Origin: Dudresnaya verticillata
Lineage: Eukaryota
Assembly (NCBI GenBank): GCA_977862235.1
Contig: OZ374564.1
Span: forward strand, 1,798,001 to 1,862,000
DNA: 64,000 nt
Direction: 5' to 3'
Position numbers and translations under genes: made by a program. Of this stretch, positions 2,224 through 38,009 are shown one piece after another; position 1 is the first letter of the stretch; every line of letters starts with the position of its first letter. The notes under the pieces were generated by a model. The model was not told the origin of the DNA. It made no database searches and worked only from the letters and a program-made list of their open reading frames with translations.

Positions 2224-2559
2224 GATGGATAGGGAAGCGGGATGCGCAGGCTACTGCGGTGGCGCATACGTCAGGAAACACATCACAGTGCGTGACGGGG
2301 GCACGTCCGCGAGCGCTTCACAGTGCGGAGCATTTCCACAGACGCGGGCTGGGTGAATGGGCTCGCAGTTGACAGCAGGATGGATAGGGGCCGCTGGAGG
2401 TACTGTTCCGCGACACTGGTGTAGAGGAAGAGGGTTTGAAAAGAGAGGAGATGGTACCGCCTGATGGTGGGAGAGGGCGGTGACCACGAGGAGGGTGCAT
2501 GCGGTGAGGTTAGGGTGCGTGGAGACATGTTCCGCTGCAGGCGGGTGACCAGCAGCCGG

Positions 2560-2865
2560 ATAGCTAATTCAGTGAGACTTCCGCCGGAGCTATCAGCGCA
2601 TATGGATATTTTTTATAGCTCCCTGTCGCCGACAGATTCGAAAAGCTATTTTCTTAGGTTTTCCATTTCGGCGACTACGGGAGCTATGTAGCTAACGGAA
2701 TGCCGCGAGTGTAAATATCTATTTTCTTAGGTATTTTGATTTCGGGAAACACGGGAGCTATGTAGCTCCCGCGGAGGAGGAAGTCAAAAAGCTAAGAAAA
2801 TATATATTACATTTCTCCAGCGCCATTAGCTATTGGCTGATATTCATATTCGTTTATAGCTTTTC
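2560..2865. repeat. AGCT-rich region with a ~48-bp motif repeated ~73 bp apart; probable transposon subterminal sequence
   Basis: 11 AGCT tetramers in ~300 bp. CTATTTTCTTAGGT...CGGGAGCTATGTAGCT occurs at ~2646 and ~2719. Confidence 0.55.
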
Positions 2866-3769
2866 ACTTTGGTCCTCCTGCGTTTGCTACTTTCTCGAGA
2901 CGCCCAGCCGCACCGCTCCGAGCCCGACATCATCTGAAAACGTACTGCCACTCAAGAAAACACACACCACACAACACCAGCGCACTTGACAAGGGCAGCA
3001 CACGACTGGAACCCTTTTCACAGCGTAGGTCGAGCCCACGCCCCCGCCCCGTCCCCACTGCTTCCGCTCTTCGCATCCGGCGCCGTGCTCGGCTTAGCGC
3101 TCGCTGCAGATGATGGCTGCGTGGGCGGCGACGTTGTCCCGCTTGGAGGGTCCGTCGGCGCCGGTGCTTGTGATGTTTGTCGTGTGTAGCCGCCAGGGAT
3201 TTTCGGCCGTGCTCGGCCGTGCGCAGCCATAGCCGAAAGAGACGATGGCAATCTGCATAGGACGCTTTTCAGCTGCATACACTACGAGCTGTGATAGCCC
3301 AACGCCTGGATATGAGGGAGGCCCCGCAGCCCTCCGCATGGAACGAGACGAGATGGGAGCGCATAAAGTCCATGGCGGGCTGGCCACCGACGATGCTGGT
3401 CTGGGCGGCGCCCGGGGGCGACGTCTGGCAGGAAGACGGGTCAGTCTGCATAGTTGCGCGCGGCAAGCAGTGACCTTGGAAGCTCGACGGTGCAAACCTG
3501 TAGCGGCGCAGCCAGGAAGACCAGCAGCAAGAGGGGAAGTATGTTGTGGTCCGGGCTCGGGAGCGGCGGCGTCGGACTGAGATTCATGAGGGACGGTGGA
3601 TACCGGACGAAAGTTGGACTTTGCGCGAAGCTACTCCGCAGCCTGAGAAGTGGAACTCTCTGTCGCAGCGTAATGACGCCCAACCTACAGTCCCACTAAG
3701 ATTGGAGTTTGGATCGTTGCACAAGAGCGCGATCATACTCGGAAAGGCTTCCTATCACTGAAGCACGAG

Positions 3770-4424
3770 ATGCGGATGGCCCTGGAAAAGCAGGCCTATC
3801 TCAATGCGTCGGGGTATGACGTGTTCATATCCCACAGTGGGCTGGACAAGGAGACGATGGCTATGCCTTTGTGGAGTATGCTCCGCGACCGGGGCGTATT
3901 GGCATTCGTAGACAGGGAAAGTCTCGCAGTTGGTAATGACGCACACGGCTCGATGGATAAGGCAATGGAGAAAGCTCGAGTCGGTGTCTTCATTGTGTCG
4001 CCCGAGTTTTCCGCCAAGCGTTGGACGATGTGGGAGCTGATGTGCTTTCAGAAACGCTGCGCGCATGGTGTGAAAGTTCTCGCCCGCGTGCCAGCTATCG
4101 TTCCTGTGTTCTATCGCGCGCATGTGGACTACCTCGGAGATGAGGCAGCCTTGTTTTAAGCCTCTGACGAAGCTGGTGATAATGTCTTTGTCAAGCATGA
4201 GTTCTTTCTTTGCGCGTGCCGCGAAGGGAGAGACAAGAGTTGCTGCTGTGATGGGAAGCATGCGCTTTCTGAAGAAAACAACTGGCATCGAAAATTTTGA
4301 GAAGGCGACCAATGGGCATGATGCTGAAAGTAGAGGAAAGCGAGAGTTGCTACTGTGACTGGTTGCAGACGATGTTTTACGCGTTGTTGATGAATTGAGA
4401 GACTTGCAGAAGGTAGCTTCATAA
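3770..4424 (+). pseudogene. TIR-domain gene, decayed (premature stop at 4157-4159, a frameshift and a second stop)
   Basis: YDVFISHSGLDKE..LRDRGVLAFVDRESLAVG..KAMEKARVGVFIVSPEFSAKRWTMWEL..IVPVFY is a classical TIR signature. Plausible helical continuation (MRFLKKTTGIENFE..LVADDVLRVVDEL*) lies in another frame ending at 4424. Confidence 0.8.
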
Positions 4425-4753
4425 ATGATGAGAATCACCCAATGCACACGGAGGGCATGCAGCCGTTTCATGAACAGTATTGTGGTTTTTGGCGAGAGAG
4501 CTTCCAACGATTCAGTGCTCCACACCACGCAAAAAAGTGATAAACCGCTGGTAGAGACACTGCCCAACTGCAAATGACCAAGGCGCTCATCACCACCACT
4601 CCCGGAACCTCAGACTTAAGTGATTCGGGGCGGCGCATTTGTGAGGGCAACATGTCTGACGCCTTTTTCATACCAAGGGGTGGACTCTGGCGCATATCTC
4701 TACCCGGACAGCCACAGCTAGTGTCAAGTTCCGGATGCCTGCGCTCCAAGACA

Positions 4754-5071
4754 TCAAGAACCAATGCGCAGGGTATACTCTATCGCCTCATAGGCGGCAA
4801 TAAGCGCACCTTCAATCGAAGCACTATGCTCCGACGCGACTTCCGTGCCCGCAAACGCGAGACGGAGTGCTCTAAGCTCCTTTCTGAGCTCGGAGACATG
4901 CGCGCGTGTCTGAAACGGGTCAGGCTCTGCCTTTTGCGCTTGTGCAACAGGAGCCAAACTCTCTAACGTGAGATACGGCAGGCGACTAAAATCGAGCTTG
5001 AAGTTAGCAAGTCTCTTGCGAGCCTCAAAACCGAAAAGCACTTCGAGCTGGTCGATGACCTGATTCCGCAC
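4754..5071 (-). CDS. Small helical/coiled-coil ORF, probably cargo of element A
   Basis: 105-aa ORF with heptad-like segment HVSELRKELRALRLAF, co-oriented with neighbouring small ORFs. No family recognised. Confidence 0.35.
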   Translation of the reverse strand: MRNQVIDQLEVLFGFEARKRLANFKLDFSRLPYLTLESLAPVAQAQKAEPDPFQTRAHVSELRKELRALRLAFAGTEVASEHSASIEGALIAAYEAIEYTLRIGS

Positions 5072-5319
5072 GGCCGAATATCTAAGTCTGCGGAACTCGA
5101 GTGCATGCGGGAAAGGCGAGCAGCGAAGCGAAGGACTTTCGGGGCGAGTTATTCACGGAAGAGGGCAAATCCGAATAGTTCGCAATGGCCGTGTCCCATT
5201 ACAAATGTGTGCAATGGATTCCGCTGCTGGTCTCCAGGCTTCCCGCAGTGGCAACCCTTGATGGTAAGTGCTAGGACCGTTCTCATCTTTACTACAGCCC
5301 GATGGCAGTCTACTCAGTT

Positions 5320-5598
5320 CTAGACGGAATCGGAAGAAGGGTCTTCTATATTGCGATCTTGACGTCCTCTGACGACACGAACGGAACTATGCAGTTCTTG
5401 AATCCGGATCCTGGCGTTGTGAAGTGTTCTCAACGTCCTTCTCCCGAAGTCATGCACAAGGTGTCTTACGAAATCAAATGCCCTTTGCACTTCGGTTTCT
5501 AGCTCCCGCACAGTGTTACGAAGATGGTAGATTTCAGCACGTAGAAGTGCCAACTCTCGCTGCACTTCGGCCATTGTTGGATTGACAGGTAGCGGCAT
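5320..5598 (-). CDS. Small coiled-coil protein with acidic tail (element A cargo)
   Basis: MPLPVNPTMAEVQRELALLRAEIYHLRNTVRELE...NIEDPSSDSV. Same layout as ORFs 5624-5947 and 17562-17831. Confidence 0.45.
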   Translation of the reverse strand: MPLPVNPTMAEVQRELALLRAEIYHLRNTVRELETEVQRAFDFVRHLVHDFGRRTLRTLHNARIRIQELHSSVRVVRGRQDRNIEDPSSDSV

Positions 5599-5623
5599 TG
5601 TTTTTGTACGAAGTCTGCAAAAG

Positions 5624-5947
5624 TCACATGGAAGCTTGAAACTGATTCTCAATGTCGAGGTCCAGGTCGGGTTCATCTTCTTCGTTGCGTTGTATCCCCA
5701 ACACCCTTTCGATTGACCGCAGCCTTTTTCTAGCACTTCGGGCAATATGAACGGCATTTATCACTACTCTGGACAATCTTTCCATAACAGCGGCAACCAC
5801 CGCCCTCATTCGTTGTCGAGCTCTTTCCACTGCCGTCCTTAATCCTTTCACCTCGCCTCGAAGAGCACACAATTCGGACAGTAGGCGAGCAGTGTCGACA
5901 TCCGAACTTCCGCTGCCTTGGTTGCGACGAGCGTGCATGGATGCCAT
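5624..5947 (-). CDS. Small coiled-coil protein with acidic tail (element A cargo)
   Basis: RLLSELCALRGEVKGLRTAVERAR...LRSIERVLGIQRNEEDEPDLDLD. Likely tandem paralogue of 5320-5598. Confidence 0.45.
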   Translation of the reverse strand: MASMHARRNQGSGSSDVDTARLLSELCALRGEVKGLRTAVERARQRMRAVVAAVMERLSRVVINAVHIARSARKRLRSIERVLGIQRNEEDEPDLDLDIENQFQASM

Positions 5948-6043
5948 AATTCCTTCCAGCTGGAAATGTGCAGTGGACCATCCGCCGCCCTCGACTGGCA
6001 GAATGTACATCCGGTATAGCCCAAAAATAGATGGAGCAGACTT

Positions 6044-9000
6044 TCATGGCTCTCTATCACAACCCTCCATCATGTGAAGATCCCATGCGAAGAATGCGTT
6101 TAAGTCTCGCAGCAGTGCTGGCGGTTCCTCTGGACCCTTAAAAGTGTACATATACGGCCTCTCCTCGAACGCATCGCAAACTTTGAAGGAAAATACAGCC
6201 ACGAGATGCTCTCCCTCCTTGCCGAGCTCCCGCAACCCGTACTGGTTTATTTCTGTCTTCAGTCCGTGGCAGTCGTTACCCGGTTGCAGTACTGCCTTCC
6301 CAACCTTATCTGGACCACACAGCAGCCAAACTGCGTCACCACCTTTGAGTTGCGGTCGATCGCATGACAGCGGTTTCTCCCTAGGTTTTCCTGTACGTTT
6401 CCCAGACTGTTGCTTACCTGGGGACATCATTAGAGTTTGTGATTCCCTTTCAGACTGATCAGTGCGTACCCTCTTCGTGTCCGGCTCTTTGTCTATCTGT
6501 TTTGCCGAACGCGCCTGTGCTTGGACCCCTGCATCTTGAGACGACCCGTTCTGCTTCTCCTCGGCCATGCGGTGCAGGCGTGCACGAGCCAGTCTGTATG
6601 TTTCCGGGTTTCTTTCGACGAGGCAACACTCCCTGTCTGTCCGAACGCAGGCAATGCCTGTTGTCATTGTCCCCGCGTGAGAGTCTGGGACCGAGCCGCC
6701 TACTGAGATCATCACAACCTTCAGGGCAGAAGGTTGTGATGATCTCAGTAAGTGCATCAGGATTTTTCTCCTCCGTCAGAACTGGTGTCCTGCTAGTCCC
6801 TGGCTTCATGAGCTTATCTCTGGGTACGGGAACAGAGGTCAGCACAGCAAACTTTCGGCGCTCCTTACACGAGATGAAGTGGTATGGGCTGGAGAGGTCT
6901 GGAGAGAAAGCGTTCTTGGATGTGTACCCTTGCGCCTTCCGAAGGCTGCTGCCTCAGCCCCATTCTGCAGTCCCTTCTTGCGAATTATCTGGACAGTAGT
7001 TGTGTCTTTGCAGAGTGAGAAAGAGTACTGCGGACTATCGAAATTGTTGTCGGTAAGTGCCTTTTGAAACAGCGGGAATTTCAAGAAGCTGCAGAACAGA
7101 AACACCCAACCACCCTCCTTCACAACACGTCCACAAAACTCGCAAAGGCGCTTGATGTCTTCTCCACTGAAATGGTTTGCGTATGCAGTTCCAGTATTTG
7201 ACATTCCCTTCGGAGCACCATACGGAGGGTCAGCAAGCACGAGGTCAAATAGAGGACTGCATTCATTCCTGATTGATTGGTCATATTCCTCCCACTTCAT
7301 CTGATATGTTCGTATCCTGCATTTGGAAAGCAGGTCCTTCTCCTCCACATCAGAACCGGTATCCAGTCTCTCCGACTTGCATGTTGAAGAAACAGAACGA
7401 CTACCCGGTCCAATACACTCGTTCGGGATGTCATTGTTACCAGCTAATGCGCCTGTGTCGTTGTCGTCTGTAGGATCCAGGACCGATTGCGTATTCTGCC
7501 TCTGCGTGTCAGTTACAGTCTCCTTAACGGCTTCCGACTGCTTTTGGCCACCAAGGGCCCCCTTCGAGTCTTTTTCTTTCCCCCCTTGAGGTTTCCCATC
7601 AACTTCAGAACTCGTCTTATCAATCTCGGAAGCTGAAACTATTGGCCTGTCACTTTCTCCTATGTCTGGAGATGTATCTTTCCCAGAATCAGTTTCTGCT
7701 TGGAACTGGTGCTTGAATTTCTTTTCCTTAACTGGAGCTTGTTGCGGGCATTCCCTTCAATAAGCGTCTATCAAGGGCTTGAGCACATCGTGCTCATTTC
7801 CGAAGTTTGCACGCACCTCGTGGTCCAGCTTCGTGGAACGAAGGAGGTTCTGGCGAATGACATTCATACCTTCAGGCCAACTCTGGCTCTCGATAAGGCG
7901 TTCGAATTCCCGTGCTTCCCTCATTGCTGCTTTAGCCCTTCCAAATTGTTCCAGAGTCTGAAAGCTGGTGACTGACCGGAAAGTCTGAAGTCGATGTACT
8001 TCGCGTAGTCGGTACAAAGTTGAAATCTGTATTTCTACGCCATCCTCCAGTTTGTTCCCATTCATGAAGGCGATTGCAGACTTCAGTGATGAAATGTGGA
8101 TGAACTTTCTGTAGACTCGGCAGTCAATTGTTCTCATTGCTCCGTCCTTGTCGAGTGTTGTCCCTTCCTTGTCTCCTGTCATCTTTGCAGCTAGATCCGG
8201 TCTCTCCTCATTTGCAATTTGTCCAATTGCGTGAATTACTCTCGTATCCAACCGCATAACTGTCTGAGCAGTCTGTTTAATGGTGTTGTTCCGATATAAC
8301 TTCGAACCGTCATACGCCTCCGCAATTTTTGGGGCATTTGGTTGTTTCCCAGTCTTGGCCTGCAACCTCTCCGCCTCCTCCCGCAGACCGCGGACCAGGT
8401 CAAAAAATGTAGTCTCGATAAAGTATCCCTGGTCCTGTTTCTCATTCTGATGTCGTGCCAGATGCTGGAGCTCATGGACGTTGTGCCCACCCTTCAAAAT
8501 CGTTACAGGCCATGCGAAAGACTGCCAGACTGTTGGGAACTCCTCCATTAACTCCAAAATAACGCAATGTCTATGCAAGCCGTCAACAATGCCGTACCAT
8601 TTGGAGCGATTGTTTGCCTTCTCCAAAGCTTCCTCCTCCGTTTACTCCTTCCCTTCCCCTTTCATATTCTTGAAATACACAACGACGTGACCCCGCAGAG
8701 ACCCAGTCATTTCGATGACAATTGGAGAGTCAGACCCGGCAACGTACCCAATGGTCCCTTCACCGCCTTTCTTCTCTGATGAGTGTAGATGAATGCGAGC
8801 TTTGAGGCGTTCCACTCCGGAGCGCACCACGGGTCTTATTGCCGTTAGCGGGAAGCACGCCCTGGGGTCAATGCTCATATTCACGGAACCCTCCAAAAAG
8901 TCAGAAAACAATGCCCTCCCCATACTTGCAGAAGAGCAATTTTGGTCCGCCTCAGATTGTGTAACAGCACCCTTTCCTGAACGTTTCTTGCCCATCCAGC

Positions 9001-9052
9001 CAAAAATGTAATTCAGCACTTTTGAACAAACGGTCGCCATACGTCTTTCCAA
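6044..9052 (-). pseudogene. ParB/Srx-like domain - beta-class DNA N6-adenine/N4-cytosine methyltransferase - Tnp1/EnSpm-like domain fusion, disrupted
   Basis: ORFs 8642-9052, 7757-8626 and 6839-7348 share one frame, separated only by single stops at 8642-8644 and 7757-7759 (linker translated by hand and open). ParB motif WYGIVDGLHRH; MTase motif IV FDLVLADPPYG followed by RVVKEGGWVFLF. After frameshifts at ~6918 and ~6700-6720: EEKNPDALTEIITTFCPEG/GSVPDSHAGTMTTGIACVRTDRECCLVE, matching the motif X-I-II region of beta-class enzymes. Confidence 0.8.
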
Positions 9053-11199
9053 CTGGTTGCCGTAGATGTTTCCAACTGGTTGCGTTAAGCTGATGAGAAC
9101 GGGATAAGCGTTGCGGTTTCCACGAAGAGCACTTCGGGTTTACAACAATATGTCCGTAGTCAGGTCAGTGGTCACAGCATTGAAAGACAGGCCTGTCTTC
9201 CGGATATATCATGCCGGTTTCCAGCTTTAACCTGGAAACGAAGTTTGTCCCCATGACTAACAGCCTCACGTACGGTTTTAACTTTGCCGGAAAGATAGTT
9301 AGAGCCCTGTACCATTGGTGGTGCCCTGATACATTCCGCTAGATTACATGAAGTTACAAATCACTGCAGGGTTCTATTGGTCGTCGGTAAATATATCGAC
9401 GTATTGTGTGGTAGGGGTGTTCACCCTAAGTTCGTACTTTCTCAGAAAATATTTGGAAGGCAGTGCTAACCGTCCAACCGTACAGTGATTCCGATTCACA
9501 GCTGCCCTACTAGGGTATCTAAACGATGCTCAAGGCGGGTAAGAAATGGGCATACGAAATAGTTCCACAACGTGGAGGGGAAATTGGAAGTACGTGTGCC
9601 TGCGTAGGCACACTCCCTTGGACTGGGGGTGATGTGGACGATTCGCAAATGTACAGTCATTCCGATTGTAAGAACATGAACGTGTTCCTCAGAAACGATA
9701 GGAATAACCTCGGGTTTTAGAATTGGCAAGAGGCTACTGTCCGCCCTCACAGAGTCGTTTAACATTGACATTTCCTGAAACCTGCGCCTCCACCCTGCAG
9801 ATATGGTCATCATAAGACCACTGTAGCACCGAAACAAACTGATGATCACAATCTGCCATCGGATGCCAGGACAAACGTAAGTATGCGTGTTACCCAATGA
9901 TACAAGTAATATCAAGGTCAGGGAAATGATTAATACCATACGTGAGACCATAATACAGCCTGTACCAGTGTATCCAAGTGATCCCTGTAAATACGTTCCA
10001 GAATTGTGCACAGGTCAACATGTCCTCGTTCTAGCAATACAGAAAAGCCCTATTCTGCGGAGGTTCAGACAGTCTGATCTGCGGTTCCACCTAATATCTG
10101 GGCGGTGTATGTGAACTATGCAGCAAGTTGAGGCTGCATTTTTGCAGGGTCCTCATACTGCTGCCGGTATAAGTGCTTGGGTACAGTACGGTCATTCTGA
10201 TTACCGGAATTTGAACGTGTCCAATCGAAGATATATCCCTACTTGTATACAGAGAATGCCTAAGACTCGTACACAGCAAGAGCCATTAGCTACAAGTGTT
10301 ACTTTCCGTTTAAAAGCACGCAATAGTTGCATTTAACAGATCTCCTCGACGGTACTGAGGAACAGAAATACGGCTGTACACACAGAGAAGATGATTTCTT
10401 GCCGAAGTGTAGTCATTCCTATTACTATCGACATGCTCATTGACCTCCCGGTGTTGCCGGACGACATACAGTCCGGTTTCTGCGTATTTCATGACCTCAT
10501 GCGCTTTGAATTGAGGCGTCATTGGCAGAGCAGCACCGCCGCCTTAATGGTAACTCTTTGCAATTTTCGGAACGCATAATTCGATCCTTGGAGGTGAAAG
10601 ATGAAGAAAGAGTCATGGAACAGAACCGTGCTCGGGAGTTTGAGGTCGTTATGGGTCAATACGATCATGACCAGAACATGCTCACAGTGGTATACCGTGG
10701 GGTATGAAGAAGCTTGATTACGTATCGGGGGATTCTTTCTCCGGATCCGAAGCTCATGAAATCGATACCGTCTTGGTCGAGGCTATTCGCCTCGCAAGCG
10801 AGCCAGTACGGGATATGGAGCGAATGTGCCGCCTTCTCCTGACTTGGCATTTCGCCAAAACTAACGCAGAAGGGACTGTGGAGGTAAAGGAGGCAAGAGT
10901 GGCCCGTGCGGAGCATGACGTGCGCTTCATGTATAAGAAAGCTTCGTCGTGCAAGTCTGTTTAATATCGACCAAGGATGAAGTCGACCAATCAATCTGAT
11001 TGCGTAGCAAGGAGTAGTAATTGGAGACGCGCGTCGGTCTTGACTACGTGTGCTTATGGCCGTACCTTTCGTCGTCGGTAATGTTAGAAACGAAAAGACT
11101 TCGACGGTTGTATTCTTGACGAGCGACGTAATACGAATTACGCTCCTGGCGGCTTTTGAATTTGCCATGTCCCCGCGAGAGTACTTCCTGCACAATAGC

Positions 11200-12009
11200 T
11201 GTGTCGGGATTTGACATCAGCTTCTTTTCCTCTCTCTACTGAATATCAACTAGGAAGGCCTTGAAACCTCCAACTCGTTCCGTTTATCCGCAGTTCTTTG
11301 CATTTGCCTGTCCATGAACGCGTTCCATAAATGTAGGAAAAACAGACCGGTCGAATAGTCTGATTCACAGTGCCTCAAGGCCGGTGAACCGCTTGCCTTC
11401 GGAGATGCAGTTGTCAATTAATGCGAGTAAGTTGGACTCACCAATGCGGCGGACCATATCTTTGTCAGTTTCCTCTGTTCTGCGCAGGGCATTGAAATCC
11501 AGACACGACAGATCCTGGCTCTTCCCAAGCAGTTCATCACTGACTTCTCGTACAGGCTCCCTAGGTACGAGGTCAGACATCTTCCCCTTACGTACGAGGA
11601 TGTGCGTTTGGACTCCCACAGGGGGTAGTACATGAGCGGAGGATTTCTGCATCAGGACTTTGGATCGCTATTGTTCCGCTGGGCTACATACCGTGTACTT
11701 TTTGTACCTAAATACAAGATTGGATTCATCATGCCTGCCACGTCGAATGTTCAGACACGCGAAGTTTAACCCACTATCCTCTCGAAACCGGGACCAGCAA
11801 ATTGATTCCTTCTTCGCCACGTATTCGGGGCAGTTAATGCTGCACATGTTGATATCGACGCTTGTTTCAATACATGTGCGAGCCCGAGCCCTGTATTGTG
11901 GAAGGGGAGTATGCGACGGAAAAATAGAGTTATCAATAGTGGTATCAGAACGACCTATCTGGGTTCTCGTCTTCATTTCAGCAACCTCGGCTGATGGTAT
12001 CCCTCCCAA
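11200..12009 (-). pseudogene. Element-encoded gene of unknown function ('LFDRSVF' family), disrupted
   Basis: Reading through the stop at 11365 gives ...CISEGKRFTGLEAL*IRLFDRSVF, homologous to ...GTEIIGLETLGIKLFDRSVF at 18082-18632. The upstream helical segments also align. Confidence 0.55.
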
Positions 12010-13347
12010 CTGTACTCAGACCCGTTCAGGCATTACGAAACGAGCTGGGCACAATTATGCTTTAAGACCCACTGAGACGCATGGCACAGGAAGTAGACAA
12101 CCAAGATGCGGCAATTGCCAATGCACCTAGGTGCATTGGCAATTGCCGCATGTATTATATCCTTTTCATGAAGAGGCTATCTACGCCTTGCAGGCAGCAC
12201 CATACCTGGACCAGGAACCCGCAATGGCAGCTGACGAGTCAGTGTGAAGTGGGTCAACAAATGTCGCCAAGAGCGGAAACATGTCCCTTTCATGAGCACG
12301 TCCTGCTCATTTAACACCGTAGATTGTCAGTGCTTCAGTTATCGAGTACACTGAATGTTATTAACCCTGACGCATCTGGGGAGCAGGGTCGTGGGAGTTT
12401 GGACGCTATTCTCAACCGCAATGGTGGTGGACTGGAAGCGATCCCCCTGAAGGTTAAATGAGCTTACCAAACGCCGCATTTACTTTCCCCCAATGGAGCT
12501 TGCGAAATTGCCTCAATGGATGGGCCTACGGGCATGGTTGGAACGGGGAACCTTTGGGGTGTCGACAACGCAATCGGTCGCGCGCGTGGTTAACCGGGAA
12601 ACAGCTGCAGGCTTATACATTTTATTACCATTGCCTAACGAACTACGTAGTGTTGGGTGCGTGTCATGGAATGGCCATACTTTTGTCTGCGAGTTGTCAT
12701 AAAATCGGCATGTGGCGTCCCATCGTAGAGAAATACGGGCGGGCGGATCGTGCAGCGCGGTCGGGGAGCGACGGGCAGGGCGCGCTGACGAGGTGACGGC
12801 AGCGGGATCCACGGTGTGCACGAGGGTGGGCAACCGCGACAGCAGGTTTTGCCCAAGGAGTTGTGCGTCGCGGGGCGGGGCGGGGGGGCGGGTGACGAGG
12901 CAGTCTGTATGCGGTCGCGTACGGATTTGTGCACAGACGCGCACAGCACAGTGCACCCGTTGCACCAGAACGCCGAAAACTGGTGACGGGGTAGTCTGCA
13001 GGCGGCGCCGAGCACGCGCGGGGAGGGCCAGATGGGCGATGCGGCGCGCCTGCAGCGCGCGCGGCGAGGGGCATGCTGCGGGCCGGCAATTTCCAATTTG
13101 GCCCAGTGCGGACCGCGGAGTGGGCCGCGCGGGCCAAATCGACGCCAGTAAATTGAAATTCAGAATACCTCGAAATATTTTGGGTAAATTCACGCAAACC
13201 GCCATAAATTTCGAAGGAATGGTCCGTTAGCCAATCGGATTTCACCACCGTACTCAGGGGACGCTCCCCTTTCCAACCATACTAGAAAATAGGTATTCGA
13301 CTCCAGTCTGTTTCGAAAGTCGTATTCTGAAATCGCTCAAATGCGTG

Positions 13348-16300
13348 TTGACGGAGCACTACATCGACTTGCTTCCCGGCTCTCGCCGGATCCCCTCTCC
13401 ACCTTATCGCGCTGGGCCGTAACAACGGCAGCACGCGCAAGCGGAAGTCGATCGCATGTTGCGTCAAGGGGTAATCGAACCGGCACAATCGCGTTAGGCG
13501 TCGCCAGTCGTCTTCGCCCCAAATAAGGACGGAACTCTTTGCTTTTGCGTACATTATCGTCGGCTGAACGTAGTAACCATACGGATATATATCCGTTACC
13601 ACGGATTGACAAATCCATCGACAGTCTAGGAGATGCCAACGTATTCACCACCCTAGACTGTAATGGCAGATACTGGCAAGTGCCAATTGCTCCGCGGGAT
13701 CGCGACAAGACGGCCTTCACGTGCCACGCCGGCCTCTTTGGCTATAAGCGTATACATTTCTGTTTGCCCGACGCGCCGGCCATGTTTCATCGGACTTTCG
13801 AGATATTACTCGCTGGGTATAAGTGGCGTTCGTGCCTCGTCTATTTGGACGACGTTATCATATTTTCAAAGGACGTTGATACACAATTCCGTCACGTTGA
13901 CGAGATACTGTCCATGTTGCACCGTGCCGGGGTGGCTTTGAAGCTGACCAAGTGCGACTTCTTAACCCCAACGGTCAACTGTTTGGGAAATGTGATACAT
14001 ACAGGACTATTGGAAGTCGACCGAACGGTTACCGCCGCGTTGCGCGAAGCCAAGCACCCACGGGACCAGAAGACGTTACGCAGTTTCCTCGGGCTGTGTA
14101 ACGTCAGTAGACGATTAGTATCGCGTTACGCGCATGTTGCTGCTCCCCACAAGACGTTGCTCCGAAAGTAGCAAGAGTTCACACTACCGTCCTTTGACGA
14201 AGTACAATTGGCCGCGTTCGACACCTTCATCGAGGCCGTAACCAGTCCGTCCGTGTTGGCGCTACTACAGCCAGGCTTGCACTATTCCGTCGATTATAAC
14301 GCTCGCGAATACCAAGTTGGGTGCGCCCTCTTTCAGGCGCAACCCAATGGGGAACAGAAGCCGCTCGGGTTCTGTTCGCGTTCGCTCACCGCTCCGGGCC
14401 GTAATTATTCCGTCTCTGAGAAGGAGTGCCTGGCGGTATTGTGGTCAGTTACAACGTTGCGTCCGTATCTCCAGATGGAGTCATTCACCTTGCACACGGA
14501 CCAATCTTCGCTGAGGTGGGTGGTGGAAATCAGCGAACCTCGGGACGTTTGATGAGATGGCGACTTCGCCTCTCGGAATTCGACTTCGTCGTTAAGTACA
14601 ACAAGGGTTACTGTACCAACCAGGCTAATGCCCTTTCACGTCTGCAGACGAATGGGTAAGCGGTTGAACCGATCGACGACGATGTGCCGTGCTACCATGG
14701 GGAACACGTCGAGGAAGAACACCAGGCGTCGAGTGACAGTGCGATTAACGTCGAAGGCGAAGTCGGCTTTTTGGAACGCGCGTTTGAAGAGTTCGACCGA
14801 CTACTTGTCGAAAAAGGGCCTCCAACGGATGAAGTACTCCTGCGTCAAGTAACGAACGAGGAACTGATCCATACCCAAGCCAACGATGAGGACTGTTCCG
14901 GGATTCTGAGGCGTCTCGATGAAGGTGAATTGATACCATTCGCAATGGACGAGCAGGGATGACTTAGACGAACTGTGGAGGTCCGACCGCAAGCCCTCGT
15001 GCCCTTCGCGTTACGCATTGGCCTCCTGCACCTCAGGCATTACGATATGTTAGCGGCACACCCGGAGGGAGGAAAATGTATCAGACGCTTCGAGCGCGTT
15101 CTATTGGCCGTCAATGACGATAGATTGTTACGCAACCGTTCGCAACTGCGTTACCTGTGCGAAGGACCGCGTCCTGTTGCGAAAGAACGTGAAAGAGATG
15201 AAGCTGTTCCCGGCTAGCGAGCTGCTCGAGGTCGTTTCTATCGACATCCTCGGAGAACGCATACGTACTAAACGGGAAACAAGTTCCTCCTTTTCATCGT
15301 CGATCGCTTTTCGAAGCTGATCAGGACGGTACCTCTACGTACAAATACGGCTCTGGAAATCGCAAAAGCGTTCTTTCGACATTTGGTATTCGGGTATGGT
15401 CCGCCAAAGCGCCTACTGTCAGATAACCGGCCACAGTTTGTCGTCAAACTATTCCAGGACATCTGTCGTCTACTAGGTGTCGGGAATCTCTTCACCACTA
15501 CGTATCACCCTCAGTGCAACGGACAGGGGGAACGGCTTAACCGGACGATACTCGCATCGTTACATTGCTACGTGGCAGACCACCCTCGGGACTGGGACCT
15601 GTTCACGGATGCGTTGAATTTCGGTTACAACACGCAGATCCACTCATCAACCCAGTTGTTGCCGTTAGATTTGGTACTGTCCCGACCACCAATCCCTTTA
15701 TCGGTTCAAGCGGAACTGTCGCTGGAAAGCATTCCAACCGGCGGTCAATACTACACGAAGTGGAGGGCATGGTTGACCGAGTTGATGAGCACTGCGACGC
15801 CGACGTTGGCACAAACGCAAGCACACTACAAGCGGGACTTAGACGCTCGACTACGGAAATCCGCCGAGAAAATTGTCGCTGGGGATTTAGTATTTATTCG
15901 CAAGGACTGTTTCGCCAGGGGCGGCTAGAGGGATCAAGCGGAGCGCAAGCATAAGTTAGCGCCGGTAGCGGATGGACCTTACAGAGTGATCTGCGTCAAC
16001 GACGGTACAGTAACCGTCGACAAGGGACGCAACGAACACGAACGGCTATCAAGGAAGCCCGTCGTTTGGGCACCGACCCCTCCGGGTCATGTACCAATCA
16101 GTACCACGCAGCCGCGGATCAGCAGTCCGATGGGCCGCCGCCTGCCTAAGAATTCGTCAACAATGAAACGGACGTTGCTACCGCTAAAACCCCAAACGGG
16201 GGTGACCGACAGACGCGTGGAGACCGCTCGTCGCAGGCATCCGTTCGCGGCCTTGGCGAATTAGCTCCGCTTGCGGCTGGCCCCGGTAGTGAGTCGTCAC

Positions 16301-16533
16301 ATTCCGTCTCAGACGATGGTCAACCGCAGGGCGTCTGTACTAGGTTCGGCGTCGCTAGGCATACGCCGGCCACACCGTAGGCTGATCCAACTCAAAGCGT
16401 CCCCGATGTGACCAAGGCCACGCCAGGGACGGTAGGAAGCAAAGATCAAACTCCGACTGGGCCGGCGAATCGAACGCCAAAAGCAAGCCCGTCTCCGGCC
16501 GAGGGAGTTCGCTTTGCGATACGGGACGTTAAA
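13348..16533 (+). mobile_element. Ty3/Gypsy LTR-retrotransposon pol fragment (RT-RNaseH-integrase), dead and truncated at both ends by CAC-terminated elements
   Basis: TEHYIDL..SPPYRAG, YPLPRID..LDCNGRYWQ, YLDDVIIF, RNaseH NYSVSEKECLAV..HTDQ, integrase HHCC (H..AAHP..CVTC) and SIDILG / SDN / GQGERLN. Many stops and frameshifts. Confidence 0.95.
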
Positions 16534-17561
16534 CACAGGTTTCCCGCGTTTCAGAATTTACTTTCAAAAACAGACTGAAATAAAAGCCTTCCAAAGTACA
16601 TGCGTTGGAAAGGGAGCGTCCCGTGAGCACGCTGGTGCAAACGGAGTAGAGAACTAAGCAGTAGTTCCCGAGTTATGTTGGTTGGCGTGCTAACCCGGCA
16701 GTGAGTCTGAAATAATTAATTTTGTTTTTAATTTCTGAGACTTTTTAATTCTGATTTTGAGGTAACCTAGGCTAGTTCCACGGGCCCTTCACCGCGCAGT
16801 ATACGCTGTCCCAACAGTGCAGAACTACTCGTCAGTTCAATGCCGCTCTCCCCATGACATGCAGAGTACTGCAGCACTGCCATGAATTCCCTTCCCGGAC
16901 TCAATCCGGTACAACTTCGGGCATTCGTCAGCCGGCAACTGCACGCTACACTCTCTACTTCTATGCACTCTCTGCTCTTCCCTAGGCTTCAGTACTTGCT
17001 CTGCGCAGTCGCACTCGCCCGCTACACTCTCCCTCCGCACCGACACATCGGCTCGTTGTCCTTCGCGACAACCAAAAACCCCACCCAAGTATTGTAATCC
17101 CTGTTTCACCAACGTTACAGCATGTGCTGTACAGTGCGACGGCATTCATGTAGCGCTCCTCCCAGTGCATACCGTCCTCTCCGTCGACCTACTCCGTGTG
17201 GTTTGGACTGGGCTCCGGTACTGAATTTTTTCCCACATCGCCGTGAATTCGCCGTGGTCATAAGTTGGATCTCGTTCCCCGCTCCGGACACCTCGTACTT
17301 CACACTTGCAGTTCCCTACACATGTAGCGAGCTGCAGCTCGCCAGACACCCCGGTCAAAACCACAAACACCAATTTCTAGTCATGCACTTGAACCAACTT
17401 CGAAAGTGCACTCAAAGATATCTCCCATAGTAGTCCGCACCACGATTCCTTACTTGCGCCCGTTCCCCTCTTCAATCGCCTCAGCATGATAGACATAAAC
17501 AACCGCTCCCGTACTCACTTTATCTGTAACTAACTCTCCTCAACTACCTTTACCCTAAACC

Positions 17562-17831
17562 TCAGTCCGCTTCAGACTCCGGGTCTTCTTCATCGACCTC
17601 CACCGCCCACCGCCCTAAGAAAACTAGTATTCCCTCCAGCACCACGTTCACCGCCTCCCTAACTACGACAGCATCCGCAATCATGACCCGTGCCCATCCC
17701 AACAAGTCCAAACGAAGCCATATGGCGTCACTGGTATGACGCCTGGCTCGTGCCCGAGCTTCTTCTAGCTCGGCGCGCAGTCTCCGTACCCTCAGCACCA
17801 ACGCTTCCGGTGCTTTATCGCAACTCTCCAT
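17562..17831 (-). CDS. Small coiled-coil protein with acidic tail (element B cargo)
   Basis: LVLRVRRLRAELEEARARARR...FLGRWAVEVDEEDPESEAD. Same architecture as 5320-5598 and 5624-5947. Confidence 0.45.
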   Translation of the reverse strand: MESCDKAPEALVLRVRRLRAELEEARARARRHTSDAIWLRLDLLGWARVMIADAVVVREAVNVVLEGILVFLGRWAVEVDEEDPESEAD

Positions 17832-18081
17832 CTAAGTCGTCTCCAACAACCCTCAAACCGGCACTGTAACACTCCCATTTATAGACGGAACCGGGCACCA
17901 TTCTGAAGTTTAGTTGATCTCGTTTACACCAACTCTGCACATATTTTCCCTATTGCGACACCGCTACAACGTCGGGAATCGTTAGCATGCAAACCGTTCT
18001 TGGTGCGTAGTTTTTATTCTTTTAGCGGACGCGGCGAATCCCAATCGATGGGAGTACCTGGTGGAGAAATGTTCACAATGT

Positions 18082-18632
18082 TCATCCTTGAGATTCTGCG
18101 CTTCTCTTCATGGACTTTGCGAACTGCTTCTCATACTTCCTACGTTCTCGTGCCGACAAGTTATCCATGTCTATAAGCAGAGGGTTGGGAGCCATCTCAC
18201 GCAGCTTCTGCATTCCTCTCTCCCTTGCATCCCTAAGGAAGTTGCTCAATGCGAAATATTGCCCGCGCCCTGCCACACTGTATTGCCCTTCTTTCCCTAT
18301 TACATCCCTCATAAAACTCTTGAATACCGACCTGTCAAAGAGCTTTATGCCCAGAGTTTCTAGACCGATTATTTCCGTCCCTCGCTGCTGAAGTATATCA
18401 ATATACTCTCCAATCTTGCCACTCTGAACCGTTTCATGATGTCCTTCGCACACTCCCCGTCCTTGCACAAGTCGGCTACATTCAGGGACTCCATTTTCTG
18501 GCCCACTTCCACCATATCAAACGTTGCTTCCTGCAGCTCTGTCAGACATTGACGGTGTGCAGCCCGGTTTCTGTGCTCCATTCTGTTCTGTTCGATAGTG
18601 ACATTCATGTGCCATGCACGATTCAAGTTCAA
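18082..18632 (-). pseudogene. LFDRSVF-family element gene, frameshifted and 5'-truncated
   Basis: Overlapping ORFs 18369-18632 and 18082-18468 join into one protein homologous to 11200-11652. Confidence 0.55.
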
Positions 18633-21600
18633 TGGCTCAGCAACTTGTTGAGGGGGGCAGCGACATGCGCGTATCGCGAGACGAACCGTCTGTAGACGTT
18701 ACAAAGACCGAGGAAGCTCCGTAGCTCCTTCTGATCCCGTGGATGCTTGGCTTCGCATAGCACGGCAGTGACAGTGCGGTCAACTTCTAACCGTCCTGGA
18801 CGTATGGCGTGACCCAAGCAGTTGACGGTCGGGGTGTAGAAGTCACACTTGGTCAACTTCAGAGTCACCCCGGCGCGGTGCAATGTCGAAAGGATCTCGT
18901 CAACATGACGGAAGTGACTGTCGATGTCGCTGGAGAAGATTATTACGCCGTCGAGGTAGACGAGACACGAACGCTATTTGTAACCAGCGAGCAGTATGTC
19001 CAACGTTCGTTGAAACGTAGCGGGTGCGTTCGTGAGACCGAATGGAATACGCTTATAGCGGAACAGTCCGGCGTGGCACGTGAAAGCGGTCTTATCGCGG
19101 TCTCGCGGATTGATCGGCACCTGCCAGTACCCACTGTTACAGTCTAGGGTGGTGAAGCGCGGCAGCGGGTACGTATCCCGTACGGTTACTGCGTTTAAAC
19201 GGAGGTAGTCTACGCAAAAGCGGAGGGTCCCGTCCTTCTTGGGGGCGAAGACCACTGGTGACGCCCACGGAGATTGTGCGGGTTCGATGACCCCTTGACG
19301 CAGCATGCGGTCCACTTCCGCTAGAGCGAGTTGTCTTTGCTTCGGCCCCGCTCGGTAAGGCGGGGACGATATCGGTCTAGAGCCGGGACGCAGGTCGATG
19401 TAGTGCTCCGTGGTTGAGATTTCTCCCAACGAACCGTCCCACATAGACGAATACTTGCGTAACATCTCCTTAAACCAACCTTGATGCTCGGCGGGGAGAT
19501 GTCCCAGGTCCAAATCGTCTACTGACGGAGACTTGGCAGTGGTTGCCTTGATGGACGTCGTGAAAGTATCCGGCTTTGCCGTATTATTATCGGTCGTTTG
19601 AAAACGTAAATCTTGGTTTGCCTTCTCCGCATCGGCCTGTTCCTCTGTGAGGCCCAAAACATCGGCTAGACTTACGTGACTGGGGAACACTGCTGTCGGC
19701 TGTGGTAACGCCGTCGCGACGACTTGGCCCTTGGCCAGCGCCTGCGGGCGGGGAGAGAAGTTGGCAACCAGGATGCGAAACGCTTTTAGCGGCTCCACTT
19801 GAGCAATCCCGTTCGTAGCGGCCAGACCTTGTTTGTCGTACAGCGTTCCGAACGGTTGAATTGTGATGACGCCGGCGCGCTCGGTGGTCATTGATACCCA
19901 TTGCTGCGCCTTAGGCGGGATGATCGCGTGCTCGGTTACTCGTATCTTGGGCGACGTCCTTCCTTCGGCCTTGCCGTATTCCTGTTCCGTTGGTAACGGA
20001 GGATACGACGGGGGTCGGCGCAGGGGGCGGCGCGTTATAGGGACACGAGTCCCGTCGTCCAATTCGACCTCGCGACTTCGCGGATATATTGCTTCGACAA
20101 AACGGTCGCAAAAGTCGCAGCCGAGTATAACCGGCGCAGCGAGTCGGTCGCAAACGATCAGTTCCAACTTGACGACTCGCCGTCCCAGACGAACGACCAG
20201 GTCGATGGTGCCTCTTGTCTGGATCGCCTTATTGTTGGCGTCGGCTATGACGGGGAGGCTTTTTGCCGTGATGCGTGATCGGGAATATCGTCAATGCGAA
20301 TGAAATTCGGACCGGCCCCCGTGTCGAGGACAGTAAGTTTATGTACCAAGGTACTAATGGTTGCGCCCAAGTCGGCGTACACTTTGTAGTTCCTTTTGGC
20401 CATTACAAACAACTGCCCCCGCGCCTGGGGGGCTGGTACCTTCGCCATCGGCGTTTTAATGACGTCTGTGACGACTCTATCCGCCCGCTGGCGTCATCAG
20501 TAACTAACTTCGGGCCCTCCTTCCGTGTCAGCACCCGAGGCTTAGGCCTCTCTTCGCGGTGTGACGCCCCAGTGTCAGGATTCGGTGCCGAGTTATTTTT
20601 TCGCCTGCGGCGGTGGTTGTGGCGCTACGCAGCGATTGATCATCGTCGGATGACGTTCTGCCGCGTGCGATATGGGTCCGCCTCTTGGCGATTGTGGTCG
20701 TGCAGCACGGCGAGCAGCGTCGCGGATCGCGCGTTCCTTGCAACGGACATACGCATCAGCGGGGACACCAGCCTTCTCGGCTTCGGTTAGTCCTTCATAG
20801 TTGGTAATAACCTTCATGAAGTCGCTCATGCGGAGGAAGCAGTCCGGCGCGATGTGTCCACGAGCGTAACATTGGTGGCATACCAGCTACCGACGCGCGT
20901 CTTGACGGGGCGGACCTCTGTCCTGCCATCCGGGCCCTGCTCGGTGAACGTGAGGGGTATACTCGGAATAGGGAACGCCTGGTGCGGGTACTACCGAGCG
21001 CCCAAAGACGAGAGCGGGGTCCATATCCCTTGCGTCTTCGTCATCGACGTAGCTGTCCATCGGTAAAACCGAAGTTGGCACCGACGCTTGCTCGTCTGCC
21101 AAGTATAGATCGCCATCGGCGTGTGTTTCCATGTCATCGACAGGGCGGCTAGCATCTCGGAACTCGACGGAGGACTCCGCTATTATAGCGCGCGCTCCAG
21201 GCTTCGCGCCTCTCGTCTGTGGACGCAGCACACCTCGGGCATCGCCGATGGCGGGTCGCGACGTGCGTACGGCTTGAGCGTGTCAGTATGTATCGTAGTG
21301 CTAACGCGGAACCGGCCCTGCCGTGTCGTGCGCGGTTGGCATCCCCTTCATCCTGTACGAAGTGGATCAGTCGCTCAAATGACAACTCCGCCCTCGGCAT
21401 TTCTTCTCGGAAGCGAGCGACCAGGGACCTGATGGATGGGTCTAACCGGTCGATGTACAGCGTCATCTTTTCCAAATCTGGATATACGTTACCGCAACGA
21501 ATACACGCACCGGCTAGCCGCATCCCATAGGTCGTCTCGTCCTCGCCTTGCTTCTGGACGGTCGACCGTAGGTCGAGGACAGCGTCCCTGATCGCCGCTG

Positions 21601-36045: not shown

Positions 36046-36750
36046 ATGAAGCAGTCCTTCTCCGCCCCGCTCCTCCTCCTCCTCCTCGCGCTGCTCCCAG
36101 CCGCCGCGCTCGCGCAGTCGCTGGACACCATCAAGAACGTGTGCCTGTGCAAGTGCTTCGTGCGCACCACGCTGGCCAAGGCGCAAAAGTTCGCCGAGGG
36201 CAAGTGCGCCGGCCTGCCGTCGTACTGCTTCGTGCGCACGTGCACGCGCGGCGCCACCGGCAACGCCGGCTACGAGTGCTGCGGCGTGCCCGGCACCGTG
36301 TCGCCGTCGCCCACGCCCACGCTCTCCGTCGGCGCGTCGCGCTCGCCAGACCCCACGCCGTCCGTCACCGCGTCCACCACGCCGGCCGTCTCGCCGTCCA
36401 CCAGCGTGGCCGCGTCGCCGTCTACCAGCGCGGCCGTGGCCGTTTCCCCGTCTACCAGCATGGCCGCGGCCGTCTCGCCGTCGACCAGCGTGGCCGCGGC
36501 CGTGTCGCCGTCCACTTCGGTGGCGGCTGTCACTCCGGCCGTGTCGCCATCTTCATCGCCGGCTGCCTCGCCGATGGCGTCGACGCCGCCCATGTGCGAC
36601 GGCGTGGCGTGCTGCGCGCCGGGCTGCGGCATGTGCAACGAGACCAACTGCGCGGCCAGGCCGGGCGGCCTGCTCAACTGCTGCTGGGGCTACATTGTCG
36701 AGAGTGGCCGCGTGTGCGGGCTTGCGCCGCCGCCGTGCAGAATTGTTTGA
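36046..36750 (+). CDS. Secreted Cys-domain / Ser-Pro-Thr stalk / Cys-domain protein, paralogue 1 (234 aa)
   Basis: Signal peptide MKQSFSAPLLLLLLALLPAAALA-Q; 8-Cys N-domain (CLCKCFVR..KC..PSYC..C..GYECC); SPSTSVAA repeats; 10-Cys C-domain ([40 protein letters not shown]); strongly GC-rich third positions. Confidence 0.9.
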   Translation: MKQSFSAPLLLLLLALLPAAALAQSLDTIKNVCLCKCFVRTTLAKAQKFAEGKCAGLPSYCFVRTCTRGATGNAGYECCGVPGTVSPSPTPTLSVGASRSPDPTPSVTASTTPAVSPSTSVAASPSTSAAVAVSPSTSMAAAVSPSTSVAAAVSPSTSVAAVTPAVSPSSSPAASPMASTPPMCDGVACCAPGCGMCNETNCAARPGGLLNCCWGYIVESGRVCGLAPPPCRIV

Positions 36751-37836
36751 GAAGGCTTGGATTAGGTCATGGCTTGGTTGAGAGGTGATTTTCGCGGTCG
36801 TTGGTGTTGTTGTTTTCTCGTCGGGCTGCTCGCTTCGTGTGATTCGTGGCGAAAGGTGCTCTTGTTGTAGATGCCGCTGTGGCACGCCGAGGATGTGGTA
36901 TTTGGCAGGTTTTGCAAACTTCTGGTCATGTTGTACTCACGGGCAAGAGGCGGTGTGTATGCCTAAAGGTACTCCGTGCGCGCCGCTGCTATGGTCTTAT
37001 GGTTTTCTTTCTCCGTTGTCGGCTGATACGTTTGGACAGAGACATACAGTAGGGAGAGAGAGAGAATAAAAGACTTGCGTTTTGGCGTCGCGGGGACTGC
37101 CGCCGTATTTGCATACAAATTGAGATTTTGCCTTTTTGTTTACCGCGCGCGCGAAACATGTCTGTTGTGCCTCCCTATCGTATCCGATCACAACGCGCAG
37201 TGTACCCTCGGACGCAGTGTGTCCCGAACGAGCAACGCGCACGGCACCGCACGGCACCGCGTCCCGCTTTCCGACCGAGCGGGCGCGTGCGGCAGGCGGA
37301 GTGTGCGGGAATGCGCACGCGGCGCGATGCGGCGGTACGCAAGTGCGCGCGCGTGAGACACTATGAGAGTGATAGGGTGTTTTCAGCGGAATACCTTCAC
37401 GCGACGCCGTTGCCGCGCGCAAAACAATGACGCGCAGCGCGCCAGCCACTGTAAACGCACGGTGCAGTACTGTACTGCGCGCGCACTCACACTGCTCGTC
37501 AGCAGCGCTTTCGCTATTTGCTATCGCAGCGCCGTCACTTTATCCGCATTGCAGGCGCGCACCACGTGGCGCTCCGCTTCGCCGCGCGCACTGTCCGTAC
37601 ACTGTCACCACGCACCGCCGCGCGCCGCGGCCATCATCGCCTCTCATCACCGCATTGTGTACAGTATGCCGTGCCGTGCCGTGCCACGGCACAGTGAGCC
37701 GCAGCGGCGCCTCGCCGCACCTCGCATTCCCGCACCCCCTCCCCGATCCGCCCCTCCCGCCCCATCCGCGCGCCATTATTCCTCGCCGCGCCGCGCCCAT
37801 CATCGCCCTACTTGCCACATCACCCGCCGTGCCGCT

Positions 37837-37869
<33 letters not shown>

Positions 37870-38009
37870 CCCCTCGCGCCGCCGCCCCCGCGCCGCGTAA
37901 TAAAGACCAAAGAGCCCAGCGCCGCACCCACCGCCACCGCACCAGCCACCCGCCACCCGCCGCTCCACCGCCCCGCCCCCTCGCTCCCTCGCGCCGCCCA
38001 CCCGCCACC

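What the first reader, a model, noticed from the sequence alone, without database searches (positions are those of the whole stretch)
13243..16638. Two related CAC-terminated element ends face each other across a Gypsy pol fragment, defining a gene-rich CACTA-like family
Seen: 13243-13347 (reverse complement) and 16534-16638 align over ~105 bp. Both begin CAC exactly at the Gypsy junctions and share the blocks TTTCAGAAT, ACTTTC, AAACAGACTG and GTTGGAAAGGG(G)AGCGTCCC. Established: 5'-CAC termini are typical of the CACTA/EnSpm (CMC) superfamily. Inference: these are the right end of element A and the left end of a diverged relative B, both inserted into retrotransposon DNA. The reversed-ends arrangement can drive alternative transposition, which could explain the missing Gypsy 5' half and the abrupt B/Gypsy fusion at 18632.
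Basis: partly seen in the sequence, partly recalled or inferred. Interest (0 to 1): 0.7.

Follow-up and report, generated by a model that had tools for sequence, protein, structure and literature searches.

The report
Giant methylase-carrying transposon remnants, Sola1-like ends

Summary
The two ends are real: 111 of 162 columns match over about 157 bp, no shuffle reaches that score, and the likeness stops at the Gypsy side. The tip is probably misplaced by two bases. Both ends read AACAC, and comparison with a second Gypsy copy puts the 'AA' inside the element, which removes the CACTA signature. The flanking bodies A and B share an orphan gene (36% identity). Its direction makes these a 5' end and a 3' end, so the match is likely a long imperfect terminal inverted repeat. 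A carries a broken ~980-residue ParB-like plus N6/N4 DNA methyltransferase gene with intact unnamed relatives. AAC tips, a long repeat and this fusion match the published giant Sola1-1_Ec32 of Ectocarpus. No transposase and no target duplication could be found, so the superfamily stays open (Sola1-like 0.45, EnSpm/Plavaka 0.2, Mutator 0.15). Two insertions followed by two ordinary deletions explain the layout; nothing shows reversed-ends transposition. No genome or reads were available for copy-level tests. New member of a known kind.

The parts
13191..13349 (-). End of element A (likely its 5' terminal inverted repeat); reads AACACGC inward, tip likely at 13349
16532..16689 (+). End of element B (likely its 3' terminal inverted repeat); reads AACACAG inward, tip likely at 16532
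13350..16531 (+). Gypsy1: decayed pol piece (RT, RNase H, integrase) between the two ends; 5' half and 3' LTR absent from the window
6047..8995 (-). Broken ParB-like + beta-class N6/N4 DNA methyltransferase gene of A (DPPY motif; stops at 8644 and 7759, frame changes near 6935 and 6710)
11050..12030 (-). Gene X of A, orphan, with in-frame stops; reads away from the A end; start may lie further up
18082..18635 (-). Gene X of B, 5'-truncated at the Gypsy2 junction; reads toward the B end; 36% identical to A's over 77 aa
9750..10970 (+). Unassigned protein-like frames opposite to the methyltransferase gene ('gene Y'); coding status and identity open
5624..5950 (-). Small coiled-coil-like frame with acidic tail in A (a similar one follows at 5323-5598)
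17565..17843 (-). Small coiled-coil-like frame with acidic tail in B, tentatively related to A's (2 of 300 shuffles)
18636..24986 (-). Gypsy2: 5' LTR 24141-24986, primer-binding site, gag-pol, cut off at the end of RT where it joins B

Best explanation
The two matching stretches are likely the 5' end of one and the 3' end of another decayed giant cut-and-paste DNA transposon, most likely of the Sola1-like kind, which probably inserted separately into one Gypsy retrotransposon. Shown: the ends match over about 157 bp and stop matching at the Gypsy DNA; both read AACAC; A and B share gene X; A holds a broken ParB-like + methyltransferase gene whose relatives are intact fusions. Inferred: a transposase, lost from these copies or supplied by others, bound the long terminal repeats (the TTCAGAAT block recurs inverted about 170-200 bp inside each end) and moved the element. 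Inferred: the accessory protein bound the element's own DNA and put N6-methyl marks on adenine (DPPY motif), probably to keep the element expressed. Inferred: one later deletion removed A's far end with Gypsy1's 5' half, and a second one removed the rest of B, Gypsy1's 3' LTR and Gypsy2's 3' half, making the 18635 junction.
For: End match and sharp outer limit. AAC tip: 1 of 256 codons mismatches at all three positions, so TT at 13348-13349 is unlikely to be Gypsy, and AA makes up only 0.06 of Gypsy1 dinucleotides, so the AA shared by B is unlikely to be chance. Gene X shared, E 7e-6 within the window. Order end-X-...-coiled-coil in A and X-coiled-coil-end in B is collinear if the ends are opposite ends. 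Fusion: P0007 (971 aa) aligns to 8914-6065 at 38%; PF01555 E 6e-14 and 4e-11 in P0007 and P0016, above the curated cut-off. [quoted passage not shown] No Gypsy-like sequence left of A and no third end in the window.
Against: No transposase of any kind was identified, so the superfamily rests on ends and cargo only. The flanking 4-mers under the AAC tip are GACG and GTTA, not the AWWT described for Sola1 (PMC3845634 passage); only B's fits the 'ending in A' bias of the Ectocarpus family. The tip argument uses one other Gypsy copy at 74% identity, and junction filler bases could mimic it. ParB/methylase cargo moves among Plavaka, Mutator, Zisupton and Fanzor elements, so it does not mark a superfamily. 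ParB likeness is weak in every test. The coiled-coil link is marginal (2 of 300 shuffles, one of 21 pairs tested). Homology to the Ectocarpus protein was not tested.
Confidence: 0.45

Rival explanations
1. A and B are giant EnSpm/CACTA elements (Plavaka lineage included) with CAC tips; the shared AA outside CAC is a 2-bp target preference or chance.
For: Both ends contain CAC at the same register. 5'-CAC..GTG-3' ends are described for EnSpm (PMC12730594 passage), and Ectocarpus EnSpm families have CACAG/CACTG/CACCC tips with 2-bp duplications; B reads CACAG. Giant Plavaka elements with ParB and N6-methylase genes are known in red seaweeds.
Against: TT at 13348-13349 does not fit Gypsy. The shared end is at least 157 bp against 20-25 bp TIRs in the five Ectocarpus EnSpm rows. 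Fungal Plavaka tips are TGT or CATCA. Bostrychia has ParB with a 2OG domain and methylase with SET; here ParB-like and methylase are one protein and no SET hit was found. No repeat array next to the ParB-like gene.
Confidence: 0.2
2. A and B are giant Mutator-like (MULE) elements: long terminal repeats and the same kind of accessory genes.
For: MULE TIRs can exceed 300 bp (PMC10741241 passage). Chondrus crispus Mutator elements carry homologues of the Plavaka accessory genes.
Against: No MULE domain in 18 read-through frames. That MULE ends usually begin with G is recalled, not tested.
Confidence: 0.15
3. Whatever the superfamily, the A end reached the inside of Gypsy1 by a transposase-made adjacent deletion or reversed-ends event, with A's far end left in host DNA further left.
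For: The A tip abuts internal Gypsy DNA cleanly and no Gypsy 5' half lies left of A. The best further match to the A end in the window lies on the fitting strand at 2664-2788.
Against: That match is reached by 15 of 200 shuffled queries, has no AACAC tip and does not match B's end. The DNA between the two ends is retained, whereas reversed-ends events cut it out (recalled from maize Ac work). The 18635 junction carries no end.
Confidence: 0.12
4. The element belongs to another or an unclassified cut-and-paste group (for example KDZ), or A and B ends are the same end of elements that differ by an internal inversion.
For: Gene X has no homologue in two word-based searches and no Atlas hit; KDZ families can have long low-identity TIRs.
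Against: Collinear gene order favours opposite ends; the listed KDZ tips begin GGG or CAG.
Confidence: 0.08

Closest known systems
Sola1-1_Ec32, giant Sola1 DNA transposon of Ectocarpus (PMC12477816; section 5 and supplement MOESM3 row 117 seen)
   Same: AAC-starting tips, long imperfect terminal inverted repeat, a ~1000-1100 aa ParB-like + N4/N6 methyltransferase accessory protein, large size.
   Different: Tip AACAC versus AACCG; no transposase or 4-bp duplication seen here; extra orphan gene X and small coiled-coil frames; copies decayed and truncated; host is likely not a brown alga (inferred). Sequence homology untested because the FASTA supplements could not be read.
Giant Plavaka (EnSpm) elements with PAG1-3 of Bostrychia moritziana (bioRxiv 10.1101/2025.02.11.637652; abstract, passages and section 8 seen)
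   Same: Multi-gene DNA transposon with ParB-like and PF01555 methylase cargo; the ParB entry 7BNR_B named there also ranks second, non-significantly, in the Foldseek search here.
   Different: There ParB pairs with a 2OG oxygenase and the methylase with SET, in separate genes beside tandem inverted-repeat arrays; here ParB-like and methylase are fused, with no SET hit, no arrays and no Plavaka transposase found.
Giant Mutator elements of Chondrus crispus carrying PAG homologues (cited in the Bostrychia preprint; only that mention seen)
   Same: Long terminal repeats are typical of MULEs; same kind of cargo.
   Different: No MULE transposase found; duplication length untestable.
Phage and bacterial beta-class DNA adenine methyltransferases (phrog_67, PRK11524, DpnA-like)
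   Same: DPPY catalytic motif before the SAM-binding motif; P0007 hits phrog_67 at E 1e-20 and PDB methyltransferases at E 7e-6.
   Different: Fused to a long helical ParB-like region and an unknown C-terminal domain; found inside a eukaryotic transposon.

Membership tests
EnSpm/CACTA (CMC) | Element begins exactly with CAC (CACTA/CACTG in plants) | tested here: not met
   Both ends read AACAC and the AA does not fit Gypsy; rests on two ends and one comparison copy, so probable, not certain.
EnSpm/CACTA (CMC) | Short terminal inverted repeats (mostly under 50 bp) | tested here: not met
   At least 157 bp shared, provided the two ends are opposite ends, which is inferred from gene order.
EnSpm/CACTA (CMC) | 2-3 bp target site duplication | not testable with these tools
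   Neither element has its second end in the window; no genome held.
EnSpm/CACTA (CMC) | Transposase_21 / Plavaka DDE transposase | tested here: inconclusive
   No Pfam hit in 18 read-through frames of A and B; elements are truncated and frameshifted.
Red algal Plavaka with PAG cassette | PAG2 (methylase + SET) and PAG3 (ParB + 2OG) as separate genes | tested here: not met
   ParB-like and methylase form one reading frame in P0007, P0016, P0019 and A; no SET hit.
Red algal Plavaka with PAG cassette | Tandem inverted-repeat arrays beside the ParB gene | tested here: not met
   No array in 2400-19000 beyond short two- to three-copy runs.
Sola1 (Sola1-1_Ec32 type) | AAC-starting tip | tested here: met
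   AACAC at both ends against AACCG; Sola tips are described as very variable, so this is weak.
Sola1 (Sola1-1_Ec32 type) | Long imperfect terminal inverted repeat | tested here: met
   At least 157 bp, marginally to about 330 bp; 282 bp in Ectocarpus.
Sola1 (Sola1-1_Ec32 type) | Fused ParB-like + N4/N6 methyltransferase accessory gene | tested here: met
   Methylase firm; ParB part only by motif and weak hits.
Sola1 | 4-bp target site duplication | not testable with these tools
   Second ends missing.
Sola1 | AWWT target preference | tested here: not met
   Flanks are GACG and GTTA; the Ectocarpus family is listed only as biased towards a final A.
Sola1 | Sola1 DDD transposase | tested here: inconclusive
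   No Pfam hit; no Sola reference sequence was available for comparison.
Mutator/MULE | MULE transposase | tested here: inconclusive
   No Pfam hit.
Mutator/MULE | 7-12 bp target site duplication | not testable with these tools
   Second ends missing.
Gypsy LTR retrotransposon (motif as part of it) | Motif present in another copy or in the LTR | tested here: not met
   Absent from Gypsy2 at the same place and from its LTR.

The most novel reading that the evidence does not exclude
A second algal lineage, outside brown algae, carries giant Sola1 transposons with the same ParB-methyltransferase fusion and AAC-tipped long repeats as Ectocarpus, plus a conserved orphan gene; the family marks its own DNA with N6-methyladenine as an anti-silencing device, and intact genes such as P0007 and P0016 make this directly testable.
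Probability: 0.25. Interest if true: 0.6.

Novelty: new member of a known kind. Interest (0 to 1): 0.32.

Why it matters
Whether algal transposons use ParB/methylase accessory proteins to bind and mark their own DNA is stated as an open hypothesis in both papers read. This locus is too decayed to test it, but it points to intact ~980-residue relatives with the catalytic DPPY motif and to candidate binding DNA, the long terminal repeats. It also shows that a CAC near a junction can mislead: a two-base shift of the tip changes the superfamily call. The facing-ends layout itself is what any two neighbouring terminal-repeat elements give.

Tried and rejected
No whole genome is held for this window and no sequencing run was listed, so the genome-wide test of copy boundaries could not be run. 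Related loci for the ParB-like protein: none confirmed among 112 pattern matches in viral contigs, 267 in metagenome contigs and 212 in prokaryote genomes; P0016 patterns matched nothing in viral contigs. End patterns: 0 matches in viral contigs, 8 in metagenome contigs and 38 in prokaryote genomes; none of the 46 loci extends beyond the seed or encodes an A/B protein, so all were taken as chance. Gene X: no homologue among 5812 and 5736 candidates, no usable Atlas hit, single-sequence model of mean pLDDT 54 not searched. The full-library HMMER search never ran (queue full at all 10 tries), so gene X, gene Y and the ParB-like family lack that search. ParB fold: model mean pLDDT 50; Foldseek gave no match at E 0.001 or better; VIA-align best Z 5.9 and no ParB among the 50 rows shown; PDB profile search gave no ParB. 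Candidates for A's far end rejected: 4259-4331 (E 3.4, inside the TIR-domain coding sequence), 2973 (rank 442 to 5595 of 6314), 2664-2788 (15 of 200 shuffles). A coding-potential profile did not settle the frame of gene Y. Motif likenesses of gene Y to 2OG oxygenases or Sola1 transposases were from recall only and were not used. Five look-ups of papers failed (Bao 2009 by three ids, Yuan and Wessler 2011, the Current Biology version of the Bostrychia paper).
Full report
Observation. The two stretches align as reported: 79 of 111 columns over the 105 bp given, and 111 of 162 columns over 13191-13347 against 16534-16689. None of 1000 shuffles reached the score of the wider local alignment. Segment tests show firm likeness for the first 120 bp (0 of 500 shuffles twice), weaker to 170 bp (7 of 500), marginal to 330 bp (22 of 500) and none on the Gypsy side (458 of 500). 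No third copy lies in the window; the next profile hit has E 0.84. Between the ends is a decayed Gypsy pol piece, 74% identical over 812 columns to a second, inverted Gypsy.

Where the tip lies. Both ends in fact read AACAC. Gypsy2 gives a ruler for the A junction: 18 of 18 bases match from 13351, the codon before it mismatches at all three bases, and further up identity falls to 15 of 60. Over the whole Gypsy1/Gypsy2 alignment 1 of 256 gap-free codons mismatches at all three positions and 3 of 256 at the first two, while 87 of 256 differ at the third only. So 13350 fits a wobble base of Gypsy and TT at 13348-13349 fits the element. B has the same AA, a pair that makes up 0.06 of Gypsy1 dinucleotides. 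The tip is therefore probably AAC. This rests on two ends and one comparison copy; filler bases or a target preference could mimic it.

What the bodies hold. A carries, on the minus strand at 8995-6047, a gene for an N-terminal region with a GIVDGLHR motif (ParB/DndB-type signature, recalled) and an N6_N4_Mtase domain (E 2.6e-5, below the curated cut-off because it is broken). Six relatives at 39-52% identity were found among 6378 candidates; their clusters hold 19 proteins, none named. P0007 (971 aa) and P0016 (986 aa) are whole fusions with PF01555 above cut-off and align along the A gene at 37-38%. The A copy has two premature stops and two frame changes. The methylase call is firm. The ParB call is weak: GmrSD_N E 0.083 in 2 of 6 and DndB E 0.04 in 1 of 6 members, a ParB-like PHROG at E 0.092, Myxococcus ParB second in Foldseek at E 0.86, one ParB_N cluster among 30 Atlas hits, and no ParB among 50 VIA-align rows. 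A and B share gene X (36% over 77 aa, E 7e-6), which has no homologue in two searches. Small coiled-coil-like frames with acidic tails follow the methylase gene in A and gene X in B; their likeness is marginal (2 of 300 shuffles, among 21 pairs tested). Frames at about 9750-10970 on the plus strand look protein-like but have no Pfam hit and no settled frame; they were not searched against the large protein collections, so whether they are a transposase remnant is open.

Which ends these are. Gene X reads away from the A end and toward the B end. The order end-X-(Y, methylase)-coiled coil in A and X-coiled coil-end in B is collinear if A's is the 5' end and B's the 3' end. The match is then a long imperfect terminal inverted repeat, not two copies of one end (inference). 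The exact TTCAGAAT block near each tip recurs inverted inside: 13159 in A exactly, 16748 in B with one mismatch; one-mismatch copies occur at 0.83 per kb in the window, so this is only suggestive of binding sites.

How the layout arose. No Gypsy-like sequence lies left of A, and no second LTR exists in the window. A's far end was not found; three candidates failed. The simplest history is two insertions into Gypsy1, 3.2 kb apart, then one deletion that took A's far end with Gypsy1's 5' half and another that ran from inside B's gene X to the end of Gypsy2's RT (junction about 18633-18639). Reversed-ends transposition cuts out the DNA between the ends and leaves junctions at element tips (recalled from maize Ac work); here that DNA is in place and the 18635 junction has no tip. 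An adjacent deletion made by the A end is not excluded (0.12).

Comparison with what is known. [quoted passage not shown] Its five EnSpm rows have CAC tips, 20-25 bp TIRs and 2-bp duplications. The Bostrychia preprint 10.1101/2025.02.11.637652 (abstract, passages, section 8; supplements not seen and likely to bear on novelty) describes giant Plavaka elements with three accessory genes that also ride on Mutator, Zisupton and Fanzor elements. PMC12730594 (passages, section 20) gives CAC..GTG for EnSpm and TGT or CATCA for fungal Plavaka. PMC3845634 (passages) gives AWWT as the Sola1 target, which the flanks GACG and GTTA do not meet. PMC10741241 (passages) gives TIR lengths for CACTA, MULE and Sola. 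PMC4455052 and PMC3627910 (passages) added nothing decisive. The element works like the giant algal transposons with ParB/methylase cargo; it is not filed as a member of any superfamily, since neither transposase nor duplication could be tested. Searches for a red algal Sola element with this cargo found no such paper, in a library that lacks most subscription journals and Repbase Reports.

Host. The window is eukaryotic (LTR and LINE elements, host genes such as ETF-QO, a kinase and a glycosyltransferase). A red seaweed is my guess from recalled genome features; no call tested it.

Verdict. Real ends of two related giant DNA transposon remnants (about 0.9). Superfamily: Sola1-like 0.45, EnSpm/Plavaka 0.2, Mutator 0.15, other or unresolved the rest. 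The rearrangement story is unsupported. New member of a known kind; interest 0.32.

Noticed in passing
window 12106-12151 and 6701-6750: A perfect 46-bp palindrome and a 50-bp near-perfect one inside element A; the second sits at a frame change in the methylase gene and looks like a template-switch inverted duplication.
   Followed up: partly
window 25651-25709 and 30098-30158: Another inverted-repeat pair (77% over 61 bp) enclosing LINE-type RT pieces at 28293-29316 and a 333-bp direct repeat at 27456/29478; an unclassified DNA transposon with a nested insertion.
   Followed up: no
window 3677-4420: A broken Toll/interleukin-1 receptor (TIR_2) domain gene, E 2e-12, just left of the last genes of A; host gene or cargo is unclear.
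   Followed up: no
window 2580-2870: Repeated palindromic units (GGGAGCTATGTAGCT) upstream of the ETF-QO gene, possibly a small non-autonomous element; weak, non-significant likeness to the A end.
   Followed up: partly
window 24141-24986: Gypsy2 5' LTR of 846 bp with 9-bp terminal inverted repeat and a primer-binding site at about 24131-24140; no second LTR in the window.
   Followed up: yes
window 36047-46000: Tandem family of GC-rich genes for likely secreted Ser/Pro/Thr-repeat proteins with cysteine-rich ends, with a local inversion at 40153-40527 / 43728-44091.
   Followed up: no
window 4760-5200 (+): A third coiled-coil-like frame on the opposite strand, weakly like the one at 5624-5950 (3 of 300 shuffles); the left limit of A is unknown.
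   Followed up: partly
L004:~9990-10110 and L005:~2040-2165: Two metagenome contigs share a short array of CTATGTAG/CTACGTAG palindromic repeats next to the chance pattern match; unrelated to the finding.
   Followed up: no
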